From Myxococcota bacterium (GTDB taxonomy: Bacteria > Myxococcota_A > UBA796 > UBA2385), in the NCBI GenBank assembly GCA_044344255.1, contig JBIJDH010000017.1, positions 22,125 through 86,124 of the forward strand: a DNA stretch of 64,000 nucleotides, written 5' to 3'. Positions 32,807-47,097 of the stretch are shown piece after piece (position 1 is the stretch's first letter; each line of letters begins with the position of its first letter). The notes beneath the pieces are model-generated. The model did no database searches, was not told where the DNA came from, and worked only from the letters and a program-made list of their open reading frames with translations. The translations under genes were made by a program, and so were the position numbers.

Positions 32807-33180
32807 GCTGGCTCCTGCTCCTGCTCCTGGCCTGCGCCACCGAGCCGCCGCCCGCCCCCCTGCCGCCCTCGGCCCTCGAGGTGGCCGCCCCGATCGGCCG
32901 CATGGCCCGCCTGGGCGACCTCGAGGGCTACATCGCACGACCAGCCGACGATGATCCGCACCCCGCCTTGCTCCTCTGGGTCGGTGACCTCGAGGGCCCC
33001 ACGCGCGAGCGGGCGATGACCGAGGCGAGGTCTGGCCAGATCGTGCTCGCCGCGCCCCCGCTGGCCGACGCCGCCCGCAGCCGCGCCTGGCTCCAGGGCA
33101 TGCGCGGCGCCACCACCGTCGCGGAGCGCTGCCTCCGACCGAGCTGTCCTGATGCGCCGCCGACTCCAGCAGGCCCGTGA
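32776..33180 (+). CDS. hypothetical lipoprotein (start uncertain, likely near 32803)
   Basis: WLLLLLLAC lipobox. Fills the gap between tlyA and the phosphoesterase with overlaps. Confidence 0.5.
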   Translation: MGAAPGGVTLSWLLLLLLACATEPPPAPLPPSALEVAAPIGRMARLGDLEGYIARPADDDPHPALLLWVGDLEGPTRERAMTEARSGQIVLAAPPLADAARSRAWLQGMRGATTVAERCLRPSCPDAPPTPAGP

Positions 33181-34051
33181 CGCCTGGACCTTCGTGCGCG
33201 GCGTCTCCCGGGGCGTGCGCAAGGGAGACCTCTTCCCCGCCGCCGGTCGTCGCGGCCCGGCGGCGGCGCCCGGGGGCACGACCGAGCCCGAGACCCACGG
33301 CGGCCCCTGGCGACGGCTGCGGGAGGAGGTGGGCTGGTTCGTCCAGAGTGAGCACCGGATCGAGCTCCCCGGCCTGACGGCCCCCCTCCGCGTGCTGCAC
33401 CTGACCGACGTCCACCTGCGCGCCGAGGGCCCCTGGCTCGACGCCCTCTGCGCCCGCCTCGCGGCGCTCCCCGCCCCCGACCTCGTCCTCCTCACCGGCG
33501 ACGTTGTCACCCGCGGCTGGACGGAGGCGGCCGTGCTGCGCTTCCTCGGCGCTCTCCCTGCGGCCCGCCTCGGCCGCTTCGCCATCCTCGGCAACTGGGA
33601 GTGGTGGGCCGGCGCGCCGCCCATCCGCTGGCGGCCCTTGCTCGAGGGCGCGGGCGTTCGACTGCTCGTCAACGAGGTGGTCGACCTCGGGGCCCTCATC
33701 CTCGGCGGCACCGACGACCACCTCGCCGGAAAGGTCGACCTGCCCGCCTTCCGCGCCGACCTCCCCGTGGGTCGGCCCACGGTCGTGATGTCCCACAGCC
33801 CCGCCGCCTTCGCCGCGCTGGCTGGCCCGCCCGTCCACCTCGTCCTCGCAGGCCACTCGCACGCAGGTCAGCTCCGCCTGCCGATCCTCGGGGCGATGTG
33901 GGTGCCGAAGGGCACCGACCAGTGGATCGCCGGCTGGTACGAGGCGGAGGGGAGCCACCTCTACGTGGGCCGGGGCCTCGGCTGGTCGATCGCCCCGGTC
34001 CGCCTCCGCTGCCCGCCCGAGCTGGCGCTGATTCACCTCCTCCCTGGCTGA
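33152..34051 (+). CDS. calcineurin-like metallophosphoesterase (YkuE-like)
   Basis: LHLTDVH, LTGD, LGNWE, MSHSP, LAGHSHAGQ, GRGLG...PVRLRCPPE. Confidence 0.88.
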   Translation: MRRRLQQARDAWTFVRGVSRGVRKGDLFPAAGRRGPAAAPGGTTEPETHGGPWRRLREEVGWFVQSEHRIELPGLTAPLRVLHLTDVHLRAEGPWLDALCARLAALPAPDLVLLTGDVVTRGWTEAAVLRFLGALPAARLGRFAILGNWEWWAGAPPIRWRPLLEGAGVRLLVNEVVDLGALILGGTDDHLAGKVDLPAFRADLPVGRPTVVMSHSPAAFAALAGPPVHLVLAGHSHAGQLRLPILGAMWVPKGTDQWIAGWYEAEGSHLYVGRGLGWSIAPVRLRCPPELALIHLLPG

Positions 34052-34069: not shown

Positions 34070-34501
34070 TCAGGCGAAGGCGGCCTGCATCGCCGCCGTG
34101 TCACTGTACTCGTGATAACCGTACACGAGCCCGTCACGAACGGTCGCCAGCGCCGCGTACTCGTTCTCGCAGATCCGCCCCGTCGCCCGCACCCGAAAGC
34201 GCTCCCGGGCGCGTAAAAAGACGTGATCCCCCGAGGGCCAGAAGCCGAGCACTCGGATCTCGAGGTAGTCCGTGTGGTCGATGATGTGGTCGATGAAGCG
34301 GCGGATCTCCCGCCCCCGATACGGCCCCGCCCATGGGATGACCCGCGGGTCTCCCGGGAAGCTCCACGTGCAGTCTGGGTGGGTGAGGGCCTCTATACCC
34401 TCCCGATCGGCGAGGAGATAGCAGGCAAATGCCGCCTTGACGACATCGATCGGCGAGGCCGCGATGGCAGGATCACTTGGAGCGGACGATGCGGAATTCA
34501 C
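34070..34501 (-). CDS. NTF2/SnoaL-like protein
   Basis: HPDCTWSFPGD..IPWAGPYRG...GDHV...ATGR...VRDGLV...EYSDTAA. Overlaps the end of the upstream megaenzyme. Confidence 0.85.
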   Translation of the reverse strand: MNSASSAPSDPAIAASPIDVVKAAFACYLLADREGIEALTHPDCTWSFPGDPRVIPWAGPYRGREIRRFIDHIIDHTDYLEIRVLGFWPSGDHVFLRARERFRVRATGRICENEYAALATVRDGLVYGYHEYSDTAAMQAAFA

Positions 34502-37500
34502 GTCGGACCTCCGGGTTGCGCACCTTGCGGGTCACCTCGAAGGAGGCGGTCTGTCGGCCGACCCGACTGTCCATCTTCCACCATCGGCCGCCCTCCTTCC
34601 GCTCGATGTCCACCTCGATGTCGCCGTTGTAGGTGATGTGCGTGTACAGGAACTCGTCATCCGGCAGGGGGTGGACGATGAGGATCTGATCCTCGGGCTT
34701 GGCGGCGACCCGGACGACGAAGCGGAGGTCGCCCCGCTCGGCCTGGAAGCTCCAGGTGGTCAGGTCGGCGTGGTGCTCTCGGTTGAAGTAGAAGGCCTCG
34801 ACCAGGTTGCTGCGATAGACCTCTCCCCGGTAGACGAAGGTGGCCCAAGTAGTGGCCTGAGACCAGTCGTTGAAACGGGCGCCGATCGCCTCCATCATGA
34901 ACTCGGGGTCGCCCTCGAACTCGCCACAGTGGGCCCACGACCAGGCCTTCAGGTGCCGGGTGTTCCAGTAGTGGCCGTCGCTGGCGAGCTGATCGGTGAT
35001 CGTGTAAGGCTCTCCGTTCACGACCACGGTTCCGGAGAGGCGGTGCCGCACCGCGTTCGACTGGAAGTGGGGGTAGAGCTCGAAGGCGTCCATCCCCGTC
35101 ACCCGCTCGACGCCGATGGCGTCCCGCTTGTCGAGCTGGAGGTCCCAGTCCACCGTGCCCTCGGGCCCCTTCACGCGGCCCCAGGTGCGACTGTCGCTGT
35201 AGCCCGAGGGGCCGATCCGCAGCAGGATCTGCTCGTCGTTGATGACCTCGGCCCGCCCCACCGGGTATCGCTGGCGCACCGCCACGTCATTCGTGGGGTT
35301 ACGGCGATCGCGGAACCAGCACCAGACCTCGGCGATGCGCGCCTCCTCGATCGGACCGTTGTGGAGCACGTACCGAATGACCATCGACCGTTCGAGGACA
35401 GGGTCAGTCCAGAGGATGTAATAGGCCTCGGTGGCGTTCACCGTGGACAGATCGAAGCGGACCCGGTCGTCCACCCGATCGCCGACGATCGGGGCCTTCG
35501 CGACCCGCTGGTGGAGGCCGGAGAGCGAGGGGGGCCGGCTGGTCCCCTTCATCGTGTGGGAGCGGCGGCTCTGCGGGCCGCTCGGCAGGTTCTCGTAGAA
35601 GGCGTTGTCGACGAAGTAACGGGTGTATCGGCCGAGCAGCTCGAGGGGCGGCACGAGCTCGTGGTCCAGATCGGCGATGGCCTCCATGAAGGCCGTCTTC
35701 TCGGTCGGCGGGAAGTAGATCTGCTCCTCGGACAGGGCGCGGATGAAGTCCACGAAGGGGAAGAGCGCGTTCTTTCGGAGCCGCTCGGTGCCGAGGTTCA
35801 AGAACTCGCGCTTCCAGACGTCCCAGGGCAGGCCGCGGAGCTGGTAGCCCTGGGCGCGATGCCACTCGATGTAGTCCACCACGGGCTTGCTGTCGGGGTG
35901 GAGCACGAACCAGGCCCGGTTCAGGTTGGCCTTCCGCTTCGCGATGTGGACGATCGCCTTGGAGACAAAGTCGATCGGCGCCATCTCCCACAGGGTGTCG
36001 AGCAGCGGCCAGCTCCCGAGCTGGAGGCAGCCCTTCAACATCTGGGGCAGGAACTCGTCGAGCTTCGGGTATCGGCCGTCGGAGGGGCCGCCCACCATCC
36101 CCGGGCGATAGACCCCACCGGGGATGCCCCGCTCGCGAAAGGCGGTCCACACCATCTTGTCGCTGGCGTACTTGGTCTGCTCATACCCGTTGAGCAGGTC
36201 GTCGGCGTAGAGCAGCGGGTCGGCCTCGCGGATGAGGGTGCTCCGACCGTATCCGGTCGACATGATCACGCCGAGGGTGGAGACGAAGTGCACCTGGATG
36301 GGGTTCGGCAGGTCGGCGATGGCGAGCCGGAGCACCGTCTCGGTTGAGTCGACGTTGGTCGGCTTGAGGTGCTGATAGGGATAGACAAAGTTCACCCAGG
36401 CCGCGGAGTGGACGATGGTGTCGATCCGGGCCGCGAGGCCCTTGAACTCCGCCTCGGAGTGCCCGAGGCGGGGCTCGAGCAGGTCGCCCAGCACCACCTC
36501 GACGCGGCTCAGGTCCACCCGGTCGAGCAGCTCGTAGCGACGCAGGTTGGCGATGATCCGCAGCAGGCCGTCTTCGGGGGTGGCCGAGCGCACGAGGCAG
36601 AGCACCCGGGCGCTCGTCTGCTCGAGCAGCTCGACGAGCAGGTAGATGCCGATGTAGCCGGTGACCCCGGTGAGCAGCACCGAGCGCATCGGCCGGTCAT
36701 AGGTGGAGACGTCGAAGCCGGGGTGACAGATGTCGGGGGCGAGCTGCCCCTCCTCGGCGAGGGAGAGCTGGTCGGAGAGCAGGGTGGGGGCGCGACCGGC
36801 CTTCACCTCCTCGATGGCGTGGGCGAGGCCGGCCACCGTAGGCTCGGGGATGGTCTGCAGCGAGATGCTGTCCGGGACGCCCTGATCCCACATGCGGGCG
36901 AAGGTCTCGGCCGCCTTCAGGCTGTCGCCGCCGAGCTCGAAGAAGTTGTCGTAGATGCCCACCCGGTCGATGCGGAGCACGTCTCTCCAGATGGCGGCGA
37001 TCTTCTTCTCCCAGGCCGAGCGCGGGGTGACATATTCGGTGGCGAGGCTCGGGCGGTGGATGCGGGAGGAGGCCTCGACCGCGGCCTGGAGGGCCTGGAG
37101 GTCGTGCCCATAAGCGGCGATGCGGGCATACCCCTCCGCCGCGGCGGTGCGGGGGGTGGTGTCAGTCCCGCCCTCGACGGCCGGCTCCTCGGCCGGCGCG
37201 GCCGCCGCGAGCAGGGCCTCGGCCTCCGCGGCGTGGAAGCGGACCCGCCCCTGTCCGGCGGCCGTCTCCTCCAAGCCCAGCCCCGCGTAGAAGCCGCGGG
37301 CGACCGCGTTTCGGGGGGCGGCCTCAAAGCGCAGGTGGACGGTGGACAGTCCGGCGGCGACGGCGGCGGCGGTGATGTGGCGCACCATCTCGTGCTCGAC
37401 CCGGCGCCCGAGCACCCGGCAGCTCAGGAGGAAGAGATCGGCCTCCATCACCGGCTCACCCTCCGTGCCCACGCATCCGACCGGGCGGGCCGAGAAGAGT

Positions 37501-39128
37501 CCGACCATGCCGTAGTCGCCGAACCGATCGGCCACGCGCACCCGGGAGAGGACCCGCCCCGGCTCCGCGGCGAAGACCCGCAGCTCACCCTCACCCATCG
37601 GGCGGCGGGCGGCGTTGAACTGGTTGGTGCGGTGGGTGAGCTGGGCGGCGCGCGCCCACTCGTCCGGGGCAAGCGGGCCGATGTCCAGGCGCAGCTCCAG
37701 CCGGGCCAAGAAGTCCTCGAAGGTGGAGGCCACCGCCGCCACCGCCGCCCGCGCCTGGCCCTGCTGGTATTGGGCCGTGCGCCCCCGGTCCTCCTCGGTG
37801 ACCACCGCGCTGTCGAAGGCCCAGTGGTGCGCGACGAAGTCCGTCAGCCGCGCGGGATCGCCGGGGAGCTCGATCGCGAGCACCCCGGGCAGCGCCTCCC
37901 GGACGAGCGCACACTCCATCGGGCTGTCGTCGAGGAAGAGGAAGCTGTCGAGGCCGAGGTTGAGCTCGCGGGCGAGGCCGCGGAGGTTGTCGGACTTCGG
38001 CTCCCAGTTGATGCGCCAGCCGACGAGGTGCTCACGTTGGAGCGGCATCTCGGGGTGTGCGTCGAAGACCCGCCACACGAGCGCCTCGTCGTTCTTGCTG
38101 GCGAGGCAGAGCAGCTTGCCGGACGCCTGCTGGGCCACGAGGAAGCGCTGCAGGGCCGCGTACGGCCCGCTGACATCGACCCCCTCCGGGCCCTCCTCCC
38201 CCACGACGCCGCCCCAGATCGTGTTGTCGCAGTCCACCACGATCACCTTCGCCGGGCTCGTGTGGAGCGCGGCGACGGCGCGGGCGATCTCCGCCCCGAT
38301 CGCCGCGCAGGCCGGCGGGGTGAAGGGGATGTGGCCGAGGCGGTCACGGGCCTCATCCCACATCCGCGCGATCGGGAAGCGGTCGTCGACGTGCCGCAGG
38401 TCCAGCAGGTGAGCGCCGGGGGCGGCGGACACCGCCTCGATGATGCGCTGGTTCAGTCGGCCGAGCTCGGTGGACAGCCCGAGCCGGCGGACGGCCCCGG
38501 GCGAGCTCGGCGCCAGCGCCACGATCATCGGCGGTCGGCCGCGCCGCTGGAAGGCGTCGAGGGCCCGACAGAGATCGTCCACCGTGCGCTCCACCTCACC
38601 GAGCTCCACCGCGGCTCCGTATCGGAACCAGTCCTCGATCCGCAGCAGCAGCACGCTCACGCCGGACTGGGCGGCGGAGAATGTGCTGGCGGGGCTCATC
38701 AACTCCTGGAACACCTGATTGTAACGAGAGAAGATCACCTCCGGCTCGAAGCGCAGGAGGCCGAGCAGGTGCCGGAGGGCCTCCTCGATGGGCTCGGCGG
38801 TGAAGGTGGCGGCGATGCGAACCGGCAGGCGCGCGGCGGCAGAGGCGGCCCTGGCCGCTCGGTTCTCGCGCATCCGGAGCAAGGTCTCGACCATGTCGTC
38901 GAGGGTGGGGAACTCATAGAGGAGAGTGGGCTCGAGCTCGATCTCGAGCACCTTCTCCAGCTCTCCGGTGAGGCGGACCACGTGGACCGAGCTGATGCCG
39001 AGCTCGGAGAGGGCCATGGTGAAGTCAATCCGAGTGTAACCGAGGTCGGAGGACTTGGAGAGCTCGTGGTGGAGCCAGTCGCGGAAGCCCTGGACGCTGC
39101 TGCGGGCGGTGGAGAGGAGGGTGCTCAT
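34473..39128 (-). CDS. multidomain biosynthetic enzyme: ACP - FkbH (HAD-IIIC glyceryl transferase) - carrier protein - thioester reductase - tocopherol-cyclase/lipocalin-like domain
   Basis: ACP ELGISS. FkbH KVIVVDCDNTIWGGVVGE, SKN, FLDDSPMEC, RTNQFN, DRFGDYG, LLSCRVLGRRVE. Carrier FFELGGDSL. Reductase LLTGVTGYIG, YEQTK, RPG. C-terminal EAYY...WCWF...GHYWNTRHLKAWSWAHC. Confidence 0.88.
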   Translation of the reverse strand: MSTLLSTARSSVQGFRDWLHHELSKSSDLGYTRIDFTMALSELGISSVHVVRLTGELEKVLEIELEPTLLYEFPTLDDMVETLLRMRENRAARAASAAARLPVRIAATFTAEPIEEALRHLLGLLRFEPEVIFSRYNQVFQELMSPASTFSAAQSGVSVLLLRIEDWFRYGAAVELGEVERTVDDLCRALDAFQRRGRPPMIVALAPSSPGAVRRLGLSTELGRLNQRIIEAVSAAPGAHLLDLRHVDDRFPIARMWDEARDRLGHIPFTPPACAAIGAEIARAVAALHTSPAKVIVVDCDNTIWGGVVGEEGPEGVDVSGPYAALQRFLVAQQASGKLLCLASKNDEALVWRVFDAHPEMPLQREHLVGWRINWEPKSDNLRGLARELNLGLDSFLFLDDSPMECALVREALPGVLAIELPGDPARLTDFVAHHWAFDSAVVTEEDRGRTAQYQQGQARAAVAAVASTFEDFLARLELRLDIGPLAPDEWARAAQLTHRTNQFNAARRPMGEGELRVFAAEPGRVLSRVRVADRFGDYGMVGLFSARPVGCVGTEGEPVMEADLFLLSCRVLGRRVEHEMVRHITAAAVAAGLSTVHLRFEAAPRNAVARGFYAGLGLEETAAGQGRVRFHAAEAEALLAAAAPAEEPAVEGGTDTTPRTAAAEGYARIAAYGHDLQALQAAVEASSRIHRPSLATEYVTPRSAWEKKIAAIWRDVLRIDRVGIYDNFFELGGDSLKAAETFARMWDQGVPDSISLQTIPEPTVAGLAHAIEEVKAGRAPTLLSDQLSLAEEGQLAPDICHPGFDVSTYDRPMRSVLLTGVTGYIGIYLLVELLEQTSARVLCLVRSATPEDGLLRIIANLRRYELLDRVDLSRVEVVLGDLLEPRLGHSEAEFKGLAARIDTIVHSAAWVNFVYPYQHLKPTNVDSTETVLRLAIADLPNPIQVHFVSTLGVIMSTGYGRSTLIREADPLLYADDLLNGYEQTKYASDKMVWTAFRERGIPGGVYRPGMVGGPSDGRYPKLDEFLPQMLKGCLQLGSWPLLDTLWEMAPIDFVSKAIVHIAKRKANLNRAWFVLHPDSKPVVDYIEWHRAQGYQLRGLPWDVWKREFLNLGTERLRKNALFPFVDFIRALSEEQIYFPPTEKTAFMEAIADLDHELVPPLELLGRYTRYFVDNAFYENLPSGPQSRRSHTMKGTSRPPSLSGLHQRVAKAPIVGDRVDDRVRFDLSTVNATEAYYILWTDPVLERSMVIRYVLHNGPIEEARIAEVWCWFRDRRNPTNDVAVRQRYPVGRAEVINDEQILLRIGPSGYSDSRTWGRVKGPEGTVDWDLQLDKRDAIGVERVTGMDAFELYPHFQSNAVRHRLSGTVVVNGEPYTITDQLASDGHYWNTRHLKAWSWAHCGEFEGDPEFMMEAIGARFNDWSQATTWATFVYRGEVYRSNLVEAFYFNREHHADLTTWSFQAERGDLRFVVRVAAKPEDQILIVHPLPDDEFLYTHITYNGDIEVDIERKEGGRWWKMDSRVGRQTASFEVTRKVRNPEVRREFRIVRSK

Positions 39129-39132
39129 CGGT

Positions 39133-42100
39133 TCACTCGACGGGGAGGAGAGGGTGGAAGGCGTGGAGGAGCCAGCGCGCCAGGACGCCGAGCTCGGGCG
39201 GTGGACAGGGCTCGGCGAGGCCCGGAGCGACCCGCAGCGGGAGCCCGTCGAAGAGCTCGAGCAGCGTCTCGGTCGCCCCGCTCGGCCGCTCGAGCAGGAA
39301 GGTGTGGACGGGGAACAAGGGGTTGTCGAGCGGGAGGCCGGCGCGCAGGCGGTCGAGCCAGCGCGGCAGCGCCTCCGGGGAGAGGCGGGCGCCCTCGGCC
39401 TCGAGCGCCGCCATCAGCTCGGACAGGCGAGTCGGGCGGGCGGTGGTCCAGTGATAGTAGTCTATCGTCTCGATCGGGCGGCCGATTGAGGCGGCGATGC
39501 CCTCTGCCACGTCGTCCACCGCCACCAGATCGAGCTCGATCTCGGCGTCCGGCCAGCGGCCGAGCGCCGCGCAGCCGAGCAGGAAGCGGCTCAGGAAGTC
39601 ATCGAGGTGCCCGACCCCCGTCTCGCGCGCCCCGACGATCAAGCCCGGGCGATGGATGACGAGAGGGATGGCGCAGTGCCCGGCCACGCGCAGGAGAGAC
39701 TCGGCCACCCACTTGGTGCGCGCGTATCCCGAATAGAGAAACTCCGGCTCCAGGACCCGGTCTGTCGCGAGCACGAGGCGCTGCTCCCGCCGGTTGCGGG
39801 TGTTGAACACCGCCGTCGTAGACACGAAGTGGAGAGGCCGCGCCGCGCCCCCCGACAGGGCGAGCGACACGAGCACCGGGATCGGCCCCACGTTTACGGG
39901 GGCGAGAGCGGAATAGGGCGCCACGAAATTCACGTCGGCCGCGTTGTGAAGCAGTCCGCCGAGCTCCTCCCCCTGTCGGGCCCACTCCGCGCTGGACAGG
40001 CCGAGGCCGGGCGCCCGGAGGTCTCCCGGCAGGGCGACGACGCGCCCCGGGAGGCCCAAGGCCTGGAGACGGTCATTCAGGCCCCCCGTCGCCGCGGCGT
40101 CGGCCTGTCCGTCCAGCCCAGGCAGCGGGCCGTGGGCGAGGGCCCGGAGGAGCCTCCCCTCCGCCTCAACGGCGTCGGCCGCCCGGACGAGGCAGCGCAC
40201 CTCCCCGCCGCGGCGCAGCAGCGCGGCGAGGGTGTGCGCGCCGAGGAAGCCGGTCGCACCCGTGAAGAGCAGGGGGCCCTCCGTCGCCCGCTCCGGCGGT
40301 CGCTGGTGGGGGAGGGCCCGGGTGAGGTCGCGCACGGCCTCCCGCCAGCCCGGGACGGCGTCGAGCTCGACCTGGCGCGCGCGGCCCGCGCCTCGCATCG
40401 CCTCCGCGAGCGCCACGGCCACCGCGCCGAGCGAGCTGCCGTCAAAGAAGGCGCGGAGGGGCGGCTCGACGCCGAGCAGGCCGCGGAGGGCGGTGATGAG
40501 GGTGGCGAGATCGAGCGAGGAGAGGCCGAGCTCGAGGGGCGGGCGCTCGAGGGCCTCGGGGCCTGCGCCGAGGCGCTGGAGCAGAACAGCGGCGATCGCG
40601 TCGACCAGGAGGGGGCCCTCGAGCCCGACCAGCGAGGGAGCGGGGCCCGCGGCGGGGGCCGACCCGCGACCGAGGTCCGCGCGCTCCCCCCAGGTGCCGG
40701 CGTGGGCCAGGGCGGCACAGGCGGCGCGGGCGAGCTTCTGGGTGGGGGTGCGCGGGATCGCGCCCGGCGGCAAGAGGTAGAGGGCGGCGATGGCGAGCCC
40801 GTGGCGCTCCGAGACCGCTCGCCGCGCCGCGCGGCGCAGCGCCCGAGCGCCCGCCTCGCCGTCCTCGGCCGGGGGCTCCGTCGCCCGGCGCTCCATCGCC
40901 AGCCCGAGGGCCTCTTCACCCTCTTGGAGCACGGCGAAGGCGGCCACCTCCACGAGGCCGTGCTCGTCGCAGGCGACGCGCAGGGTGGCCTCGACATCGA
41001 CCGGGTCGTGGTTCTTACCCCGGACGATGATGAGCTCCTTCAGCCTCCCGGTGACATAGAGCTCCCCCACCTCCCCCACCTCCCCCACCTCCCCCACCTC
41101 CCCCGCTGCTCCGCGCTCCACGACGCCGAGGTCGCCGGTGCGAAACCACTCCCCCTCCGCGCCCTCGAGGGTGGCGGCGCAGCGGGCCCGAGAGTCCTCG
41201 GCGGGGCCGGTGTAGCGGCGGATGACGCCGGGCCCCTGGGTCCAGAGCTCACCCACCCGCCCGGGGGGCAAGGCGACGCGGCGCTCGGGGTCGACGGCGA
41301 TCACGCGGGTGTCGGGGCCGAGCGGCGGGCCGTTGCTGATCAGCCAGCGCGTGTCGGCGGTGTCGAGGGGGGCCTGGAGCCTCCCCGAGGCCAGCCCCGC
41401 GCGGCTCACACTGAGTCGGGCGGGCGGGCGACCCTGGGGGATGCTGGTGCAGAGCGTCTCAGTCAGGCCGTAGTAGGGGTGGAGCGCGGCCGGGCGCAGG
41501 CCGGCGGGGGCGAGGCGGCCGAAGAAGGCGTCCACCGTCGCCGGGCGCACCACCTCGCCGCCCGAAACGGCCATGTCCAAGGCGGAGAGGTCGAGCGCGG
41601 CGATCGCGTCGTCGGTGAGCAGCTTCGTGACGAGGGCGTAGGCGAAGTCCGGGGCCGCGGTGACGGTGGCGCGGGCGCGAGACAGCACCTCGAGCCAGAG
41701 GGGGGGCCGCTGTAAGAAGGCCTGGGGCGAGAGGATCACCCCCTCGGCGCCAAGGAAGACGGGCAGCAGCCGCGTGTAGAGGCCGGCGACGTGGGCCCAG
41801 GGCAGCCAGGTGCAGACCACGTCCGCGGGGCCTCGCCCGCAGCACCGCGCCAGGGCGGCGAGGTTGTGCGTGAGGGCGCCGTGGCGGAGGACCGCCCCCT
41901 TCGGCGAGCCGGTCGAGCCCGAGGTGTAGAGGAGGACGGCGGTGGCCTCGGGATCATCGGGCAGGGGCCGCGCGTCTCCGGGGGTCTCGGCCTCGGGCTC
42001 CACCCTCAGCTCCACCCAGCGCAGCGGCCGCCCGTCGGCGCGCAGCAGGGGGAGCAGGGGCTCGGCCAGGGCCCGCGGGGCGAGGAGCAAGCGGGCATCG

Positions 42101-42453
42101 GCGTCCTCAGCCACCCGGAGCAGTGCGGCCCGGCCCGCCTCATCGGTCGGGGGATAGAGCGGCACGGCCACCGCACCCGACACCGCACAGGCGAAGAGGC
42201 CGACCGGCTGCTCGACCCCCGGGCCGGTGACGAGCAGGACCGCGGCCCCTTGGACCGCGCTCTGGCCGTCTGAGAGGGCCTCCGACAGGGCCGCCGAGAG
42301 GGTCGCCCCGAGGGCGCGGGCGGCGCGGGACAGGCCGCGCGCGCCGAGTCGGGCGGCGGGCTCCCCGTGCAGATCGAGGAAGGTGTAGAGCGGGCGGTCG
42401 GGCGCGGCCGGATCGGCGAGCAGCGCGGCGAGGCTCCGCGGTCGCGCGGTCAT
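39133..42453 (-). CDS. fatty acyl-AMP ligase-like adenylation domain - carrier protein - thioester reductase (A-T-R)
   Basis: YTSGSTGSPKG, APDFAY, YGLTE, FRTGDLG, GRLKELIIVRGKN. Carrier ELGLSSL. Reductase FTGATGFLG, HNAADVNF, YARTKW, RPG. ATG 42453 overlaps the FAAL stop. Confidence 0.88.
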   Translation of the reverse strand: MTARPRSLAALLADPAAPDRPLYTFLDLHGEPAARLGARGLSRAARALGATLSAALSEALSDGQSAVQGAAVLLVTGPGVEQPVGLFACAVSGAVAVPLYPPTDEAGRAALLRVAEDADARLLLAPRALAEPLLPLLRADGRPLRWVELRVEPEAETPGDARPLPDDPEATAVLLYTSGSTGSPKGAVLRHGALTHNLAALARCCGRGPADVVCTWLPWAHVAGLYTRLLPVFLGAEGVILSPQAFLQRPPLWLEVLSRARATVTAAPDFAYALVTKLLTDDAIAALDLSALDMAVSGGEVVRPATVDAFFGRLAPAGLRPAALHPYYGLTETLCTSIPQGRPPARLSVSRAGLASGRLQAPLDTADTRWLISNGPPLGPDTRVIAVDPERRVALPPGRVGELWTQGPGVIRRYTGPAEDSRARCAATLEGAEGEWFRTGDLGVVERGAAGEVGEVGEVGEVGELYVTGRLKELIIVRGKNHDPVDVEATLRVACDEHGLVEVAAFAVLQEGEEALGLAMERRATEPPAEDGEAGARALRRAARRAVSERHGLAIAALYLLPPGAIPRTPTQKLARAACAALAHAGTWGERADLGRGSAPAAGPAPSLVGLEGPLLVDAIAAVLLQRLGAGPEALERPPLELGLSSLDLATLITALRGLLGVEPPLRAFFDGSSLGAVAVALAEAMRGAGRARQVELDAVPGWREAVRDLTRALPHQRPPERATEGPLLFTGATGFLGAHTLAALLRRGGEVRCLVRAADAVEAEGRLLRALAHGPLPGLDGQADAAATGGLNDRLQALGLPGRVVALPGDLRAPGLGLSSAEWARQGEELGGLLHNAADVNFVAPYSALAPVNVGPIPVLVSLALSGGAARPLHFVSTTAVFNTRNRREQRLVLATDRVLEPEFLYSGYARTKWVAESLLRVAGHCAIPLVIHRPGLIVGARETGVGHLDDFLSRFLLGCAALGRWPDAEIELDLVAVDDVAEGIAASIGRPIETIDYYHWTTARPTRLSELMAALEAEGARLSPEALPRWLDRLRAGLPLDNPLFPVHTFLLERPSGATETLLELFDGLPLRVAPGLAEPCPPPELGVLARWLLHAFHPLLPVE
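41062..41104. repeat. 9-bp in-frame tandem repeat (~4.8 copies) in the A-T-R gene
   Basis: (ctcccccac)x4 + ctccccc encodes GEVGEVGEVGEVGE. Confidence 0.9.
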
Positions 42454-44177
42454 TCGGCCGCCTCGAGCGCGCCGCCCGACCAGCGCTCCCGACAGAGGCG
42501 CCGCTGCACCTTGCCGCTCGTGGTCTTCGGCACCTGTCCGGCGCGGACCAGCCGGATGTCGACGATGGGCAGCTCGTGGCGCTCGCCGAGGGTCCGGCCG
42601 ATGTGCCGACAGAGGGCGACCCGCTCGGGCGCCGACAAGGGGCTCCGAAGCTCCGCCACGACGACCACCCCTTCTCGCTCGCCTTGATCGACCCCAAAGG
42701 CGGCGACAAAATTGCGCCGGATGGCGGGGTGGGCGTCCTCGACGCTGAGCTCGATGTCTTGGGGATAGTGGTTCTTGCCGGCGACGATGATGACGTCCTT
42801 GTCCCGTCCGGTGATGAAGAGCTCGCCGTCTGTGTCGACGAAGCCGAGGTCTCCCGTGCGGAGGAAGCGCCTCGGGTCTCCCTCGAAGCGGGCCCCGAAG
42901 ACGTCGGCGTCGGGCCGGCCCCAATAGGTCTCGGGGAACCAGGCCGCCGTCGAGCAGATCTCCCCCACCCGCCGCGGGGGGAGGGCGAGCCCGGTCTCCG
43001 TGTCCCGGATCTTCACCGACACACCCCCGAGCGGCTGGCCCGCCGACACGATGGCCCGCGCACCGGGCCCCTCCGAGGCCTGGACCCGCCCGAGGCTGAG
43101 GGCGGAGGGATCGAGGTTCAGCCGGCGGTGCGCCCGACCTCGCGGGGTGCTGGACACCGCGAGGGTGGCCTCGGCGAGCCCGTAGCCGGGCTGCATCACC
43201 TCGGCCCGAAAGCCATAGGGGCCGAATTTCGCCTGAAAGCGGTCGATCGTGGCCGCCCGCACCGGCTCGGCGGCGTTGAGGCTCATCGCCAAGCCAGAGA
43301 GGTCGAGGCCTGGGATAGAGCTGGGATCGACGTCATCGACGCAGAGGTCATAGGCGAAGTTGGGCGCCAGGGTGAAGGTCACCCTGTGTCGCGAGAGGGC
43401 GGCCAGCCACTCGCCGGGCGCCTTTACGAAGGCGGTCGGCCGGGCCAGCAGCAGGGGATAGCCCGTATAGAGCGCCTGGAGGGCGCCGAGCACGAGGCCA
43501 AGGTCGTGAAAGAGGGGGATCCAGCACAGCGCGCGGTCTGTCGCGCGGAGCGAGAAGCTGTGTTCGAGCGCCTCTCCCTGAAAGATGAGATCGCCGTGGC
43601 GCACGACGACGCCCTTGGGCGCGGAGGTCGAGCCCGACGTGTACTGGAGGAAGGCCACCTCCTCCGCCTGGGGATAATGGTCGTCCCAGTCCTCACAGCG
43701 GCTGTCCGGCACCGCCTCGACCGCGATGCCCTGGATCCGGTCGAGCGCCGACGACAGGCCCGCCTCGGACCTCATCCGGGCGAGCAGGGGGGCGTCGGAG
43801 AGGGCGAAGGTCGCTCCGCAGTCCTCGATCACCCGCGAGAGGCGCAGGGCGTGTCGGGCGTGGGCGAGCGGGGGCATCGGCACCGCCACCGCGCCCGCGT
43901 AGGCGCAGGCGAGGAATGACATGAGATAGTCGGGGTCATTCTCCAGGAGGATGAGCACCCGCTGGCCGGCCGCGCCGGTAGCCTGGAGGGTCGCGGCGAG
44001 GGCGCGCACCCGCCGGTCCAAGGCGGCCCAGGTGTAGGGGCGTCCGGGCTCTGTCCAGCGGGGGAGCCCGGTCAGGATCACCCGCTCGGGCTGAGACTCG
44101 GCGCGGGTGCGCACGAGGTCGACGTAGCTGGTCCAGGGCAGACGTGAGAGGTCCGCCCGCGTGGCGCTGTGCACCAT
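42450..44177 (-). CDS. stand-alone fatty acyl-AMP ligase (FAAL)
   Basis: AFLQYTSGSTSAPKGV, WIPLFHDLGL, APNFAY, AEPV, YGLAEATL, LRTGDLG, GKNHYPQDIE, PKTTSGKVQR. GGAG RBS. Confidence 0.92.
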   Translation of the reverse strand: MVHSATRADLSRLPWTSYVDLVRTRAESQPERVILTGLPRWTEPGRPYTWAALDRRVRALAATLQATGAAGQRVLILLENDPDYLMSFLACAYAGAVAVPMPPLAHARHALRLSRVIEDCGATFALSDAPLLARMRSEAGLSSALDRIQGIAVEAVPDSRCEDWDDHYPQAEEVAFLQYTSGSTSAPKGVVVRHGDLIFQGEALEHSFSLRATDRALCWIPLFHDLGLVLGALQALYTGYPLLLARPTAFVKAPGEWLAALSRHRVTFTLAPNFAYDLCVDDVDPSSIPGLDLSGLAMSLNAAEPVRAATIDRFQAKFGPYGFRAEVMQPGYGLAEATLAVSSTPRGRAHRRLNLDPSALSLGRVQASEGPGARAIVSAGQPLGGVSVKIRDTETGLALPPRRVGEICSTAAWFPETYWGRPDADVFGARFEGDPRRFLRTGDLGFVDTDGELFITGRDKDVIIVAGKNHYPQDIELSVEDAHPAIRRNFVAAFGVDQGEREGVVVVAELRSPLSAPERVALCRHIGRTLGERHELPIVDIRLVRAGQVPKTTSGKVQRRLCRERWSGGALEAAE

Positions 44178-44256
44178 CGGTCACTCCGTGTTGGGTGACG
44201 AGGGTGTAGTGCGCCCTGCCCGCGGCTGTGGATTTACATTGGAAAAACTCGCGGCG

Positions 44257-47097
44257 CTATCGCCGCGCGGGCCCCTCATCGCCGGCCAGCGCGGCGAGGA
44301 CCTGCCCCCGCACAGCGCGCTCGTCCAGGGCCCGCGCCGCCGCCCGCTGCTCCGGCGAGGGCGGCGTCGACCGCGGGTCTGACGCCGTCTCCCGGTCGAT
44401 CTGGTCACAGAGCTCCAGAACCTCGTAGACCGGCGCGGCCTGCCGGAACCAGTCGAGGAGGGCGAGGAGCTCCGGCTGCGGGCGGAGGCGGAGGGCCCGC
44501 TGGAGCAGGGCGAGGGCGCCGAGGCGGGAGGACACCAGCAGCGAGGGCTCGGCCGCCCAGGCCAGGGGCTCCGCCGGCCCTGCCTCATCGGATGCCCACC
44601 ACGACAGCGCCCCCATGAGCAGGCCCTGGTCAGGCACCCGGGCGAGCCCCCGCTCCGCCCACGCCCGCTCGATGTGGGGCCTGGCGAGGGCGCGGGGGAG
44701 GCGGAGCCAGGCGATGACCGCCCGGTTGGCGCTGGGGAGGAAGCGCGCGCCCTCATCGCCGAGCTCACGGCCGAGGGCCTCGGCATCGTCCAGCATGCGG
44801 AAGGCCCGATCGAGCTCCCCTTCGAGCCCGAGCACCATGCCGACGCCGAGCAGCGCTCCGTGCTCCGCGCGCCGGTGGCCCTCGTGGCGGCTCAGGCGGA
44901 GCCCCTCCTCGAGCCCCTGGCGCGCCTCGGCGAGGTGACCCGCCGCCCGCTCGACCAGGCTGAGGTTGTTGAGGATCACGCAGGTAGACTCCGTCGTCCC
45001 GACCCGACGGCTGAGGGTGAGGCACTCCCGATAGAAGCGGGACGCCGTGTCGGAGTCACCGCGCAGCCGGGCGATGTTGCCGAGACCGTTGAGCGCGGGG
45101 AGGGCCACCGACGGGTTCTCGATGCGGTCGGCGAGGCGCACCGACTCGGCGTAGAGGCGGCGCGCCTCCTCGAGCTGGTTCTGCTCGTAGAGCGCGGTGC
45201 CCCACGACATCAGCAGGCTCACCACATATCCAGGGGCGCGGGCCGCCCGCGCCACCTCGATGAGCTCCGGCAAGCGCGCCAGGATGCCGGCGGGATCGCA
45301 TCGCCAGCCGCTCTCGCTGAGCTGGTGGACGATCCGCGCCCGGTGGTACGGATCGACCTCGTGGCGGAGGGCCTCGTCGAGCTCGCTCATCGCGTCGGCG
45401 GCCCGACCGCGGTCCATCGCGGTTCGGCCGAGGGCGAGGGCGCGCTCCGTTCGGAGACCGGGGGCCGTGGCGCCCGGAGCCTGGCCGAGGACCTGCAGCC
45501 GCTCCCAGTCCGCGGCGGCGCCGTCGGGGCGCGGGGGGTTCTGGAGAGCGATGTACTCCCAGCGCAGGGCCTCCGGGCGGCCGAAGGTGGCGGCGGCCTG
45601 GGCGGCGGCGAGCAGGGCGCGGCGCACGAGGGCCGACTCCGCGCGGGCCCAGGCCCACGCAGCGAAGCCGGTCGTGGCGCGGGAGAGCAGCGCCCAGTCG
45701 CCCTCCAGCACCGCGTCGTCCCAGGCGGCGAGCAGATCGGCGCGGAGGGGGGCCATGGCGCGGACGGCGGCCCGCTGATCGGGGCCGACAAAGCTCGCCT
45801 GGAGCTCGATGAGGCGCCCGAGGAACCAGCGGCGGTGCCGCTCCTGGACCGCGGGCCTGCCCTCGAGGCGGGCGGCGAGCTGTGTCCGCAGCATGGGGTG
45901 GAGAGACCAGCGGCCGCCCTCTCCGCAGCTCAGGAGCGAGCGGCCGCCGAGGGTGTCGAGCTCGGCGGCGCTGAGGCCTGCGACCTCGGCGGCGGCCTCC
46001 TCATCGAAGGTGCCCCGCAGCACGGACAGCGCGGCGGCCGGCGCCCGGAGGCCCACGGGGAGGCTGGCCCAGGTGCGCCCGAAGGACCCTGCGAATCCTC
46101 GCTGCTCTCCCACGCCGTCGATCACGGCGCGAAGGCCCTGGTCCTGGGCGACCGCCGCCGCGAGCGCGATGCCGAGCGGGAGCCCCCCGAGGCGCTCCGC
46201 GAGCTCGGCGATGGCCATCTCCTCTTCGACGTCGGGGATCCATGCGGGGCGCCCGTGGCAAAGGCGCTGCCGGAGCAGGGAGGCCGCCGCCGCGGGCTCC
46301 AAGGGGCCGAGGCGCAGGAGGAGCTCGCCGGGGAAGTCGAGGCTGGCCCGCGAGGTCATCACGACGCCGAGGCCCGGATCGCGGGCGCAGAGCCGCTGAA
46401 AGACCGCGCCCAGGCCGAGGACGCTCTCGAGGTTGTCGAGGATGACGAGCAGCCGCCGTTCGAAGAGGATCCGCCCGAGCAGGGCCTCGGCGCCCCGCTG
46501 CGAGGAGGGGACGCTGCCGAGGGCCTGCAGGACGGTGAGCAGCGCCTCCTCCTCCTCCCGTTGGGCGCTGAGGTCGACCCAGAGGACCCCCGAGAAGCGC
46601 GGCGCCTGCTCCGCTCGCCGCGCGAGGGCCCGCGCAAGGGCGGTCTTGCCGACCCCGCCGATGCCGACGACGCTCAGCCAGGGCTCATTGCCCGCCAGCC
46701 AGCGGTCGAGGAAGGCCAGCGCCTCCCCGCGGCCGAAGAGCTCGGCGTCCGGCGTGGGGGCCGGGAGCAGCGCCTCCTCGCGCACCCCGGTGAGCCGGTA
46801 GCCTTGGGCGCGGATGGACTGCAAGCAGGCGCCCGCTGGCTCGAGCTTGCGGCGGAGGTTGGACAGCGTGACATCGACCACCCGCGTCCGGGTGGAGGGC
46901 GAGTATTGCCAGACCTCGACGAGCAGCTCGTCGCGGCTCACGTCCTCGTCGCGGCGCCGGGCGAGGTGGCGCAGCGCCTGGAGCTCCTTCGGGCGGAGGA
47001 GCTCCGCCTTGGCGGCCCCGCCGACCAGCCCGCTGTCGAGGTCGACGGTCACGGTGAGGGCGGCGCTGGAGCCGATGTCGAGGCGGAGGATGGCCAT
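44257..47097 (-). CDS. OmpR-type winged-helix - STAND (NB-ARC-like) ATPase - TPR transcriptional regulator
   Basis: LRPKE..VSRDELLVEVW...TRVVDVTLSNLRRKLE...RAQGYRL. LFGR, GIGGVGKT, VILDNLE, TSR, GGLPLGI. C-terminal TPR-like helices. Confidence 0.88.
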   Translation of the reverse strand: MAILRLDIGSSAALTVTVDLDSGLVGGAAKAELLRPKELQALRHLARRRDEDVSRDELLVEVWQYSPSTRTRVVDVTLSNLRRKLEPAGACLQSIRAQGYRLTGVREEALLPAPTPDAELFGRGEALAFLDRWLAGNEPWLSVVGIGGVGKTALARALARRAEQAPRFSGVLWVDLSAQREEEEALLTVLQALGSVPSSQRGAEALLGRILFERRLLVILDNLESVLGLGAVFQRLCARDPGLGVVMTSRASLDFPGELLLRLGPLEPAAAASLLRQRLCHGRPAWIPDVEEEMAIAELAERLGGLPLGIALAAAVAQDQGLRAVIDGVGEQRGFAGSFGRTWASLPVGLRAPAAALSVLRGTFDEEAAAEVAGLSAAELDTLGGRSLLSCGEGGRWSLHPMLRTQLAARLEGRPAVQERHRRWFLGRLIELQASFVGPDQRAAVRAMAPLRADLLAAWDDAVLEGDWALLSRATTGFAAWAWARAESALVRRALLAAAQAAATFGRPEALRWEYIALQNPPRPDGAAADWERLQVLGQAPGATAPGLRTERALALGRTAMDRGRAADAMSELDEALRHEVDPYHRARIVHQLSESGWRCDPAGILARLPELIEVARAARAPGYVVSLLMSWGTALYEQNQLEEARRLYAESVRLADRIENPSVALPALNGLGNIARLRGDSDTASRFYRECLTLSRRVGTTESTCVILNNLSLVERAAGHLAEARQGLEEGLRLSRHEGHRRAEHGALLGVGMVLGLEGELDRAFRMLDDAEALGRELGDEGARFLPSANRAVIAWLRLPRALARPHIERAWAERGLARVPDQGLLMGALSWWASDEAGPAEPLAWAAEPSLLVSSRLGALALLQRALRLRPQPELLALLDWFRQAAPVYEVLELCDQIDRETASDPRSTPPSPEQRAAARALDERAVRGQVLAALAGDEGPARR

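What the first reader, a model, noticed from the sequence alone, without database searches (positions are those of the whole stretch)
34070..44177. KS-less, C-domain-less lipid biosynthetic operon: FAAL + FAAL-ACP-R + ACP-FkbH-carrier-R-cyclase + SnoaL
Seen: four tightly packed minus-strand genes (overlaps at 42450-42453 and 34473-34501, 4-nt gap at 39129-39132). They carry two adenylation enzymes, three carrier domains, one FkbH, two terminal reductases, a cyclase-like domain and an NTF2 protein, but no ketosynthase or condensation motif. Established: FAALs load fatty acids on ACPs, FkbH loads glyceryl from 1,3-bisphosphoglycerate, and R domains release aldehydes or alcohols. Known FkbH pathways join the pieces with a C domain (vioprolide) or a FabH-like enzyme (tetronates). 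Inference: both arms are released reductively and coupled by non-canonical domains into an acyl/alkyl-glycerol, ether, acetal or small cyclic lipid. I do not recognise this architecture; it is the best candidate for an undescribed system here.
Basis: partly seen in the sequence, partly recalled or inferred. Interest (0 to 1): 0.9.

Follow-up and report, generated by a model that had tools for sequence, protein, structure and literature searches.

The report
Conserved orphan fatty-acid/glycerate lipid operon
Four tightly packed genes form a compact assembly line that should join two fatty acids to a three-carbon unit taken from glycolysis and release the product by reduction; the same gene set recurs in very different bacteria, and no description of it turned up in the papers searched.

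Summary
Four co-directional minus-strand genes (34070-44177) encode FAAL; FAAL-ACP-R; ACP-FkbH(with N-terminal extension)-PCP-R-tocopherol-cyclase-like domain; and a SnoaL-like protein. Domain matches leave no room for a hidden KS or C domain, and neither family occurs on this contig. The set is co-conserved. Twelve fetched loci (GC 24-74%; labels include Verrucomicrobia and Planctomycetes) carry both FAALs' genes plus the FkbH protein. The cyclase-like domain is fused or adjacent in 11 of 12, and SnoaL is present in 6 of 12. Within the window's own phylum the cassette is rare (3 of 401 genomes). With an alignment, the C-terminal domain folds confidently (pLDDT 92.9) as the double beta-barrel of CghA/Fsa2 Diels-Alderases, AttH and kievitone hydratase (Z 21-24). 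Nine literature searches found no description of the cassette; antiSMASH and MIBiG could not be run. Best reading (0.45): a carrier-protein-templated synthesis of a glycerol-level lipid carrying two fatty chains (ester, ether, vinyl ether or acetal), with the barrel domain doing C-O chemistry. Main rival (0.25): BurF-like ester formation followed by reductive cyclisation to a butenolide. The product and the coupling catalyst are inferred, not shown.

The parts
44257..47097 (-). Upstream regulator: SARP-type DNA-binding domain + NB-ARC/AAA + TPR (946 aa). It is adjacent to the conserved cassette but not part of it.
   Evidence: Pfam Trans_reg_C 9.1e-16, NB-ARC 1.9e-13, TPR_12 1.8e-16. Only a weak match to an upstream gene in L002.
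44250..44267 (-). Terminator-like GC hairpin with a T-run at the regulator's stop codon. It suggests the four genes are transcribed from the 80-bp gap downstream.
   Evidence: Pattern scan, 7 GC pairs; sequence read. A consensus match only.
42450..44177 (-). Gene A: stand-alone fatty acyl-AMP ligase (575 aa)
   Evidence: AMP-binding 3.6e-64, PF23024 7.5e-11. The top NCBIfam hits are all FAAL models (FadD32 355 bits; each below its own cut-off). Conserved in all 12 full loci.
40708..42441 (-). Gene B (39133-42453, 1106 aa), FAAL domain, aa 5-582
   Evidence: NCBIfam FAAL models; PDB best hits are FAAL domains (7r7e 9.1e-71, FadD23, FadD32).
40417..40599 (-). Gene B carrier domain, aa 619-679 (LGLSS serine motif)
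   Evidence: PP-binding 1.5e-6; sequence.
39157..40269 (-). Gene B thioester reductase domain, about aa 729-1099; TGATGFLG and YARTK motifs are present
   Evidence: NAD_binding_4 4.3e-48; TIGR01746 205 bits (cut-off 213.35); MxaA 4u7w 1.8e-41; motifs read.
38841..39098 (-). Gene C (34473-39128, 1551 aa), N-terminal carrier ACP1, aa 11-96 (invariant S47)
   Evidence: PP-binding. Resembles the N-terminal ACP of Pks13: NF040607 3.1e-10, 7wrp 1.2e-5. S47 is invariant in A1 and A3.
38259..38792 (-). Gene C, N-terminal extension of the FkbH unit (FkbH_N / 'NEX'), aa 113-290
   Evidence: Part of the match to PDB 3slr BF1531 (aa 113-442, 6e-32). Atlas neighbours carry PF21211 FkbH_N in 20-31% of members. 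No Pfam hit in the copy used, at E up to 5.
37269..38252 (-). Gene C, FkbH phosphatase/glyceryl-transferase unit, aa 293-620 (DCDNT motif D299/D301/T303; invariant C570)
   Evidence: TIGR01686 7.1e-88, 294.8 bits vs cut-off 146.65; invariant columns. It is the only FkbH match in the genome.
36798..37040 (-). Gene C, second carrier (PCP-like, GGDS S736), aa 697-777
   Evidence: PP-binding; PDB PCP domains; S736 invariant.
35598..36761 (-). Gene C, thioester reductase, aa 790-1177 (TGVTGYIG; Y982...K986)
   Evidence: TIGR01746 243.3 bits vs cut-off 213.35; MxaA 4u7w 3.5e-61, 8v1x 1.2e-57; invariant T820 G821 G824 G827 Y982 K986.
34476..35531 (-). Gene C, C-terminal tocopherol-cyclase-family double beta-barrel domain, aa 1200-1551
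   Evidence: PF14249 5.6e-6 alone; 52 of 60 aligned relatives hit PF14249. AF2 pLDDT 92.9. CghA Z 24.1, Fsa2 23.1, AttH 22.9, kievitone hydratase 21.2; the next unrelated entry scores 8.3. Foldseek agrees.
34070..34501 (-). Gene D: SnoaL-like NTF2 protein (143 aa), an accessory member of the cassette
   Evidence: SnoaL_2 4.5e-11; PDB 3fgy 2e-7, TerC 6d34 6e-5. Present in 6 of 12 full loci.

Best explanation
This is a working, self-contained thiotemplate operon that builds a specialised lipid from two fatty acids and one C3 unit, without any C-C bond-forming enzyme. Steps shown by homology only: the stand-alone FAAL adenylates a fatty acid and loads ACP1 of the megaprotein. The FkbH unit takes D-1,3-bisphosphoglycerate, dephosphorylates it and puts a glyceryl thioester on the PCP next to it. 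Gene B activates a second fatty acid on its own ACP, and its R domain releases it as aldehyde or alcohol. Steps inferred: the two hydroxyls of the tethered glycerate receive the two chains. One chain comes as an ester from acyl-ACP1. The other comes from B's aldehyde through a hemiacetal that is dehydrated, reduced or closed to give a vinyl ether, ether or acetal. The megaprotein's R domain then reduces the glyceryl thioester to the aldehyde or alcohol level. The fused tocopherol-cyclase-fold barrel, whose solved relatives protonate or hydrate C=C bonds in long lipids, does the acid-catalysed C-O step on the released lipid. The SnoaL protein is an optional dehydratase or cyclase. The product would be a diradyl-glycerol-type or glyceraldehyde-type lipid. 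If D-glycerate is fully reduced, the free hydroxyl would sit at sn-3, the normal bacterial orientation (my own stereochemical inference).
For: Domain set and intact catalytic motifs. Link from FAAL to ACP1: natural fusions FAAL-ACP-FkbH-ACP-R exist in P0068 and in L047 (1769-aa ORF). ACP1 resembles the Pks13 N-ACP; that this ACP is loaded by the FAAL FadD32 is recalled. Co-conservation: 12 loci hold A, B and the C-core; the barrel is fused or adjacent in 11 of 12, in three arrangements (fused, downstream, upstream). A PPTase gene abuts the cassette in L003, L007, L044 and L046. Only the four genes are shared between the window and the other loci. Lipid context: in the Ca. Uabimicrobium locus the core sits among a CdsA-type cytidylyltransferase, a CDP-alcohol phosphatidyltransferase, an FGGY kinase, a free R protein and SDRs. 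The first two are extra paralogs (1 of 4 and 1 of 9 copies). Membrane fatty-acid desaturases lie beside the cassette in L040 and L047. Both R domains are closest to MxaA, which I recall as alcohol-forming. Barrel fold.
Against: No enzyme for the ester or ether step is identified. The known way to esterify FkbH-loaded glycerate is a C domain (vioprolide; PMC8949500 passages), and none is present. The phospholipid-gene context comes from one locus only. That genome has no tocopherol-cyclase-family protein (0 matches), so the barrel cannot be the universal coupling catalyst. Most loci carry pathway-type regulators (SARP, AraC, LuxR, LytTR), and the cassette is rare (3 of 401 genomes in the phylum). 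This fits a secondary metabolite as well as, or better than, a membrane lipid. Reduced variants without FkbH (FAAL + ACP-PCP-R + PPTase; L011, L012, L048, L049, L051) show that this R domain probably also reduces plain fatty acyl thioesters. No expression data exist.
Confidence: 0.45

Rival explanations
1. A BurF-like route to a small butenolide or furanone lipid. Acyl-ACP1 is esterified to the alpha-hydroxyl of PCP-bound glycerate. The R domain reduces the thioester to an aldehyde. The acyl alpha-carbon then closes on it (aldol or Knoevenagel type, helped by the SnoaL-like protein and/or the barrel) to give a 3-alkyl-5-hydroxymethyl-butenolide. Gene B's aldehyde or alcohol decorates this ring or condenses with it. 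The product would be a signal or an antibiotic.
For: In the passages of PMC12304814 that I read, BurF merges an ACP-bound chain with a T-bound alpha-hydroxy acid, and its terminal reductase gives an aldehyde that cyclises to a butenolide. BurF also carries a remnant of the FkbH N-terminal extension between C and T, so the ACP...NEX...T-Red layout is shared. SnoaL is recalled as an aldol cyclase. The barrel's closest solved folds are CghA/Fsa2/Phm7; I recall these as acting after R-domain release in fungal PKS-NRPS pathways. Regulators typical of secondary metabolism flank many loci, and the distribution is patchy.
Against: BurF needs a C domain for the ester (a His-to-Ala mutant is inactive, same paper), and none is present here. 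A plain fatty acyl ester lacks the activated methylene used in the Knoevenagel step. SnoaL is missing in 6 of 12 loci. This model gives no obvious role to gene B, which is present in all 12. It does not explain the CdsA/CDP-alcohol transferase paralogs in L010.
Confidence: 0.25
2. Two parallel fatty-acid reductase arms that mainly supply fatty aldehydes or alcohols (for wax esters, alkyl chains or signalling aldehydes). The FkbH unit would be a side activity or only make a glyceryl or glycerate ester of the alcohol, and the barrel and SnoaL proteins would modify the chains.
For: The FkbH-less relatives FAAL + ACP-PCP-R + PPTase persist in at least 5 loci (L011, L012, L048, L049, L051). This shows that the C-type reductase arm can stand alone as a fatty-acid reductase. 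Gene B on its own is a CAR-like A-T-R enzyme.
Against: The FkbH catalytic residues are invariant across 16 distant homologues. FkbH is kept in every locus that also has gene B (12 of 12). Keeping a 1,3-BPG-loading unit between two carriers would be hard to explain if it were unused.
Confidence: 0.12
3. The cassette is already characterised under a name that I could not find (for example in MIBiG, in a subscription journal or in a supplement), so it is not new.
For: The searched library lacks most subscription-journal papers, supplements were closed, and antiSMASH/MIBiG/cblaster were not available. A full-length homologue (56% identity, cluster of 97 sequences) carries a Mycobacterium marinum label, and that is a well-studied organism.
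Against: Nine full-text searches found no paper that joins FkbH with a FAAL and a reductase in this way. All 26 papers listed for 'FkbH' since 2020 (29 hold the term) concern PKS/NRPS contexts by their titles and abstracts. A 2025 FAAL review has 0 occurrences of FkbH, glycer-, reductase or aldehyde. Source names of homologues are generic, such as 'thioester reductase domain-containing protein'.
Confidence: 0.1

Closest known systems
Vioprolide loading modules (VioA): FAAL - carrier - FkbH - carrier - ester-bond-forming C domain
   Same: A FAAL-activated fatty acid on one carrier and FkbH-loaded glycerate on the next (PMC8949500 passages). Proteins with C + FAAL + FkbH + carriers appear as 41-43% identical partial hits (P0075, P0076, P0096, P0100).
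   Different: There is no C domain and no downstream NRPS. The line ends in a reductase plus a tocopherol-cyclase-fold domain, and a second FAAL-ACP-R protein is always present.
BurF end module of malleicyprol biosynthesis (ACP - C - NEX - T - Red)
   Same: An acyl carrier, a remnant or full FkbH N-terminal extension, a carrier for an alpha-hydroxy acid and a terminal NAD(P)H reductase that releases an aldehyde (PMC12304814 passages).
   Different: BurF has an essential ester-forming C domain, has lost the FkbH phosphatase and acyltransferase parts, takes polyketide chains, and has no barrel domain or second reductase arm.
Tocopherol cyclase / CrtC-AttH-kievitone hydratase / Fsa2-CghA pericyclase double beta-barrel superfamily
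   Same: The fold: Z 21-24 over 270-291 residues, Foldseek probability 1.00. Family membership: 52 of 60 relatives hit PF14249.
   Different: Sequence identity to solved members is 6-14%. Here the domain is fused to, or encoded beside, a thioester reductase in a fatty-acid/glycerate line. No catalytic residues could be mapped, and the substrate is unknown.
ElbD-based ether-lipid pathway of myxobacteria (CoA-ligase-ACP-reductase-acyltransferase); recalled, not read here
   Same: A carrier-bound fatty acid is reduced by an R/FAR domain on the way to a glycerol ether lipid in the same kind of bacteria.
   Different: There is no acyltransferase domain in any of the four genes. The glycerol source here would be FkbH/1,3-BPG. 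No sequence comparison with ElbD was made.
Carboxylic acid reductases (A-T-R)
   Same: Gene B has the same A-T-R logic and matches CAR structures in its R part (5msc 1.5e-23).
   Different: NCBIfam carboxyl_red scores 108.6 bits against a cut-off of 1300. The adenylation part is FAAL-type.

Membership tests
FkbH (TIGR01686) glyceryl-transferase/phosphatase | Score over the curated cut-off | tested here: met
   294.8 bits vs 146.65, aa 293-620.
FkbH (TIGR01686) glyceryl-transferase/phosphatase | HAD motif DxDxT and conserved Cys of the transferase part (the roles of these residues are recalled) | tested here: met
   D299, D301, T303 and C570 are invariant in 12 and in 16 homologues.
FkbH (TIGR01686) glyceryl-transferase/phosphatase | Loads glycerate from 1,3-bisphosphoglycerate onto the neighbouring carrier | not testable with these tools
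   Needs a loading assay.
Fatty acyl-AMP ligase | Best matches are FAAL models and FAAL structures | tested here: met
   Gene A: PRK12476 361.8, FadD32 355.4 bits. Gene B: PRK05850 254.5 bits. All are below the subfamily cut-offs. Gene B PDB hits are FAALs.
Fatty acyl-AMP ligase | FAAL-specific insertion that blocks CoA use | not tested
   Not examined.
Thioester reductase (TIGR01746) | Curated cut-off and the TGxxGxxG / YxxxK motifs | tested here: met
   Gene C 243.3 vs 213.35. Gene B 205 vs 213.35, just below. Motifs are present in both.
Tocopherol cyclase family (PF14249) | Pfam gathering score | tested here: inconclusive
   22.4 bits in the whole protein and 26.1 bits for the domain alone, against 26.6. 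52 of 60 aligned relatives match at E <= 0.01, best 6.7e-17. Atlas neighbours are named tocopherol cyclase.
Tocopherol cyclase family (PF14249) | Double beta-barrel fold of the CrtC/AttH/Fsa2 group | tested here: met
   Z 24.1-18.5 for six entries; the next scores 8.3.
SnoaL_2 (PF12680) | Pfam gathering score | tested here: met
   43.7 vs 27.
VioA-type or BurF-type ester-forming module | Ester-forming condensation domain | tested here: not met
   No PF00668 in the four proteins. The only genomic C-domain match is on contig C17.
Tetronate-type FkbH pathway | FabH-like ketosynthase joining glyceryl-ACP to a beta-ketoacyl chain | tested here: not met
   No KS or thiolase family in the four proteins. 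0 of 33 genomic KS matches are on contig C24. One foreign locus (L037) has a FabH gene next to the cassette.
ElbD-type ether lipid enzyme | Acyltransferase (AGPAT) domain fused to ligase-ACP-reductase | tested here: not met
   No PF01553 in the four proteins. A separate PlsC-like gene at 30403-31470 is not conserved with the cassette.

The most novel reading that the evidence does not exclude
The cassette is a previously unknown route to bacterial ether-type glycerolipids. The glycerol backbone is built on a carrier protein from 1,3-bisphosphoglycerate instead of glycerol-3-phosphate or DHAP. Fatty aldehydes made by thioester reductases are joined to it through hemiacetal chemistry. A tocopherol-cyclase-fold domain makes the vinyl-ether, ether or acetal bond without oxygen or flavin. 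The result is sn-1,2-diradylglycerols that, in some lineages (Ca. Uabimicrobium), feed dedicated CdsA and CDP-alcohol transferase paralogs. This could account for some non-isoprenoid alkyl glycerol ethers seen in environmental samples whose makers and pathways are unknown (that such lipids exist is recalled).
Probability: 0.2. Interest if true: 0.9.

Novelty: new variant of a known kind. Interest (0 to 1): 0.72.

Why it matters
All known uses of FkbH feed glycerate into PKS or NRPS lines, and the pieces are joined by a KS, FabH-like or C domain. Here a compact, widely scattered cassette lacks all of these. It pairs FkbH with two reductive release domains and a lipid-binding barrel from the tocopherol cyclase/hydratase/Diels-Alderase superfamily. 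Either reading would add a new biosynthetic logic and assign a first function to a large bacterial 'tocopherol cyclase' family (425 representative clusters). One reading is a carrier-templated glycerolipid with a new C-O bond-forming step. The other is a C-domain-free route to butenolides. The cassette is small (about 10 kb, four genes plus a PPTase). It also occurs in a locus labelled Rubritalea marina DSM 17716, which I take to be a cultured strain, so it can be tested directly.

Tried and rejected
Single-sequence AF2 of the C-terminal 375 residues failed (pLDDT 39). It was repeated with the 60-row alignment A2.

Hidden coupling domain. Residues 97-292 gave no Pfam hit at E up to 5. They proved to be the known FkbH N-terminal extension, so I rejected them as a novel domain.

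The one genome-contig scan did not return a mycobacterial locus. A search with gene B listed no Mycobacterium entry among its best 120. I therefore cannot say whether the cassette is complete there.

Expression. No RNA holder was listed for the stretch.

Promoter scan. The only promoter-like site lies on the + strand inside gene C, and I did not use it.

Literature. Searches returned 0 papers. One search found 3 papers (2 listed). One search found 29 papers holding 2 of its 3 terms; none of the 20 listed was relevant by title or abstract. One search listed 26 FkbH papers since 2020. One search listed 20 of 378. Of these I opened only PMC12304814, PMC8949500 and PMC11837247, and read only 'find' passages. 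Supplements were closed, so Tables S1-S3 and Figure S16 of PMC12304814 (the NEX-domain similarity network), which could include relatives of this protein, were not seen.

Flanking genes were checked for a shared accessory gene between the window and other loci; none was found beyond the four.

Full report
**What is there**

The window has about 72% GC. Its other genes include TamB/Omp85, a TonB-ExbBD set and a STAND kinase-WD40 protein. A same-family genome (G007) is identical over the fetched stretch to a record labelled 'Deltaproteobacteria bacterium' MAG. I therefore take the host to be a Gram-negative bacterium, probably Myxococcota (inference). Near-identical DNA is held by 20 freshwater (lake or river) metagenome runs from 16 studies; two of these runs are marked as possible sources.

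- an ATGA overlap at 42450-42453;
- a 4-nt gap at 39129-39132;
- a 29-nt overlap at 34473-34501.

All four genes show the third-position GC bias of real genes (0.80-0.93). A GC-rich hairpin with a T-run sits on the stop codon of the upstream SARP/NB-ARC/TPR regulator. The next gene downstream is convergent (a metallophosphoesterase at 33152-34051 on the + strand). The four genes therefore look like one transcription unit. This is an inference from spacing; no RNA data are available.

**Domains**

- Gene A is a stand-alone FAAL.
- Gene B (39133-42453, 1106 aa) is FAAL-ACP-R.
- Gene C (1551 aa) reads ACP1 (11-96) / FkbH N-terminal extension (113-290) / FkbH (293-620) / PCP (697-777) / thioester reductase (790-1177) / C-terminal domain (1200-1551).
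- Gene D is SnoaL_2.

The catalytic motifs are intact and invariant across homologues:
- HAD motif D299/D301/T303 and C570 in FkbH;
- S47 and S736 in the carriers;
- TGxxGxxG and YxxxK in both reductases.

The matches tile both large proteins and leave only linkers, so there is no room for a hidden 400-aa KS or C domain. In the whole 8.18-Mb assembly, the single C-domain match and all 33 KS matches lie on other contigs. FkbH occurs only here.

**The 'extra' parts**

Residues 113-290 had no Pfam hit in the copy used. However, they align with PDB 3slr together with the HAD part. Their atlas neighbours carry PF21211 FkbH_N in 20-31% of members, which is only a lead. A 2025 paper describes this N-terminal extension ('NEX') of FkbH-like proteins (passages of PMC12304814). 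So this region is canonical.

The C-terminal domain is the unusual piece. It scores just under the Pfam cut-off for Tocopherol_cycl. It belongs to a family of 425 representative clusters, mostly free-standing proteins of about 330-350 aa, and 52 of 60 sampled members hit PF14249. With that alignment AF2 gave pLDDT 92.9 and pTM 0.89. The single-sequence attempt had failed.

Both Foldseek and an independent all-against-all aligner put the domain with CghA, Fsa2/Phm7 and related [4+2] pericyclases, AttH, kievitone hydratase and 25-phosphosteroid lyase. These score Z 24.1-18.5, rmsd 3.4-4.1 A over 260-291 residues; the next entry scores Z 8.3. As far as I recall their functions, these enzymes enclose long hydrophobic substrates and do acid/base or pericyclic chemistry at C=C bonds.

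**Conservation**

Gene C has 25 listed homologue clusters that cover 99-100% of it at 53-72% identity. One cluster, of 97 sequences, is labelled Mycobacterium marinum. Many forms of about 1200 aa lack the barrel, and some forms have the FAAL fused in front (P0068 domain order).

In fetched DNA, 12 loci carry genes A, B and the C-core together (L001-L004, L007, L008, L010, L037, L041, L043, L044, L046). Their GC content runs from 24% to 74% (for 8 of the 12). Their labels include Rubritalea marina, Ca. Uabimicrobium, a 'Cyclobacteriaceae' MAG and several proteobacterial MAGs. Within these 12 loci:
- The barrel is present in 11, either fused, as the next gene, or as the preceding gene.
- SnoaL is present in 6.
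- A PPTase gene adjoins in at least 4 by Pfam (L003, L007, L044, L046). There are weaker tblastn signs in L001 and L008.

Nothing else is shared between the window's flanks and the other loci.

The cassette is rare among relatives. Strong matches to the barrel occur in 3 of 61 related genomes and in 3 of 401 genomes sampled from the phylum, the window's own genome included. A wide but patchy spread points to horizontal movement of an accessory trait (inference).

**Clues to the product**

- The fusions FAAL-ACP-FkbH-ACP-R (P0068; L047) tie gene A to ACP1.
- ACP1 also resembles the N-terminal ACP of Pks13. I recall that this ACP is loaded by the FAAL FadD32.
- In Ca. Uabimicrobium the core genes lie among a CdsA-type cytidylyltransferase, a CDP-alcohol phosphatidyltransferase, an FGGY kinase, a free reductase, three SDRs, a FAAL-ACP-P450 and an A-PCP-TE.
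- That genome has 4 CdsA-family and 9 CDP-alcohol-transferase matches. The cluster copies are not the best-scoring ones, so they look like dedicated paralogs.
- Membrane fatty-acid desaturase genes sit beside the cassette in L040 and L047.

These points favour a lipid with a glycerol-like head. From textbook stereochemistry (my inference, not a tool result), full reduction of D-glycerate carrying substituents on O2 and O3 gives a 1,2-disubstituted sn-glycerol with a free sn-3 hydroxyl. That is the orientation bacterial phospholipid enzymes use.

**Evidence against, or limiting**

- The phospholipid context is a single locus.
- That same complete genome has no tocopherol-cyclase-family protein (0 matches with the A2 profile). 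The barrel therefore cannot be the universal joining enzyme.
- No catalyst for an ester or ether bond is identified. The known solutions use a C domain (vioprolide, passages of PMC8949500; BurF).
- Regulators of the secondary-metabolite type flank most loci.
- Reduced relatives without FkbH (FAAL + ACP-PCP-R + PPTase; L011, L012, L048, L049, L051) show that the C-type reductase arm can probably work on plain fatty acyl thioesters.

**Mechanism I commit to (0.45)**

The operon makes a two-chain lipid on a C3 head at the glycerol or glyceraldehyde level.
- Shown by homology: two fatty-acid activations, three carriers, glycerate loading and two NAD(P)H-dependent releases.
- Inferred: acyl-ACP1 esterifies one glycerate hydroxyl. 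Gene B's aldehyde reacts with the other hydroxyl through a hemiacetal. The barrel catalyses dehydration, addition or ring closure at the resulting oxocarbenium or enol-ether stage, by analogy with alkene protonation in its superfamily. The reductase of gene C then frees the head group.

**Rivals**

- A BurF-like ester-then-reductive-cyclisation route to a butenolide (0.25).
- Plain fatty aldehyde or alcohol supply (0.12).
- A pathway already described somewhere I could not search (0.10).

**Comparison with known systems, and novelty**

The cassette works most like the VioA and BurF 'acyl carrier + hydroxy-acid carrier' modules. It fails their defining test, an ester-forming C domain. It also fails the tetronate test (no FabH-like KS) and the ElbD test (no acyltransferase domain).

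Nine full-text searches found no description of it. A 2025 FAAL review never mentions FkbH, glycer-, reductase or aldehyde. MIBiG, antiSMASH, supplements and most subscription journals were out of reach.

I rate it a new variant of a known kind: a thiotemplate lipid line built from known domain types in an undescribed, conserved combination. There is a real chance (about 0.2) that it encodes a new way to make ether-type glycerolipids.

Noticed in passing
window 41062-41104: A perfect 9-bp tandem repeat (4.8 copies, CTCCCCCAC on the + strand) inside the FAAL part of gene B. It encodes a run of Gly-Glu-Val repeats. It may be a length-variable surface loop.
   Followed up: no
L011, L012, L048, L049, L051: A reduced relative of the cassette in records partly labelled Ramlibacter/Comamonadaceae: FAAL + ACP-PCP-R with the FkbH core missing, followed by a PPTase gene where the DNA extends that far (L011, L048, L049, L051). 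L011 keeps remnants of the FkbH N-terminal extension and of the barrel. It looks like decay to a simple fatty-acid reductase.
   Followed up: partly
L010 1-25421 (Ca. Uabimicrobium sp.): A large lipid-type cluster around the core cassette: three near-identical SDR genes, FAAL-ACP-P450, CdsA-like and CDP-alcohol transferase paralogs, an FGGY kinase, a free reductase and an A-PCP-TE. The genome has no tocopherol-cyclase-family protein.
   Followed up: partly
L040 7762-8853; L047 14018-15085: Membrane fatty-acid desaturase genes lie directly beside the cassette in two metagenome loci. L047 also has a PLP decarboxylase and a GH3-family amido synthetase downstream, and its FAAL is fused to the FkbH protein.
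   Followed up: no
L041 (GC 24%), L044 (GC 34%): The cassette also occurs in very AT-rich genomes. L044 has an integrase and an F-box-like protein just downstream, which hints at a mobile or host-associated setting.
   Followed up: no
window 49468-54210 (-): A 1580-aa protein with a Ser/Thr kinase domain, an nSTAND1 NTPase and WD40 propellers.
   Followed up: no
window 55210-62024 (-): A TamB-like gene (1525 aa) and an Omp85/POTRA gene, overlapping by 4 nt: a translocation-and-assembly-module pair.
   Followed up: no
window 27806-30378 (+): TonB-C, ExbB and two ExbD genes in a row. At 30403-31470 (-) there is a PlsC-type acyltransferase that is not conserved with the cassette.
   Followed up: no
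window 47200-49407: It is unclear which strand is coding. The + strand ORF 47260-49407 gives only a weak beta-roll (LbR_Ice_bind) hit, and the - strand ORF 47200-47931 gives none. Neither passed my GC3 filter.
   Followed up: no
window 34200-44177: The same DNA (64-100% of sampled words) is present in 20 lake, river or freshwater metagenome runs from 16 studies. Two of the runs may be the source. The host seems to be a widespread freshwater bacterium.
   Followed up: no
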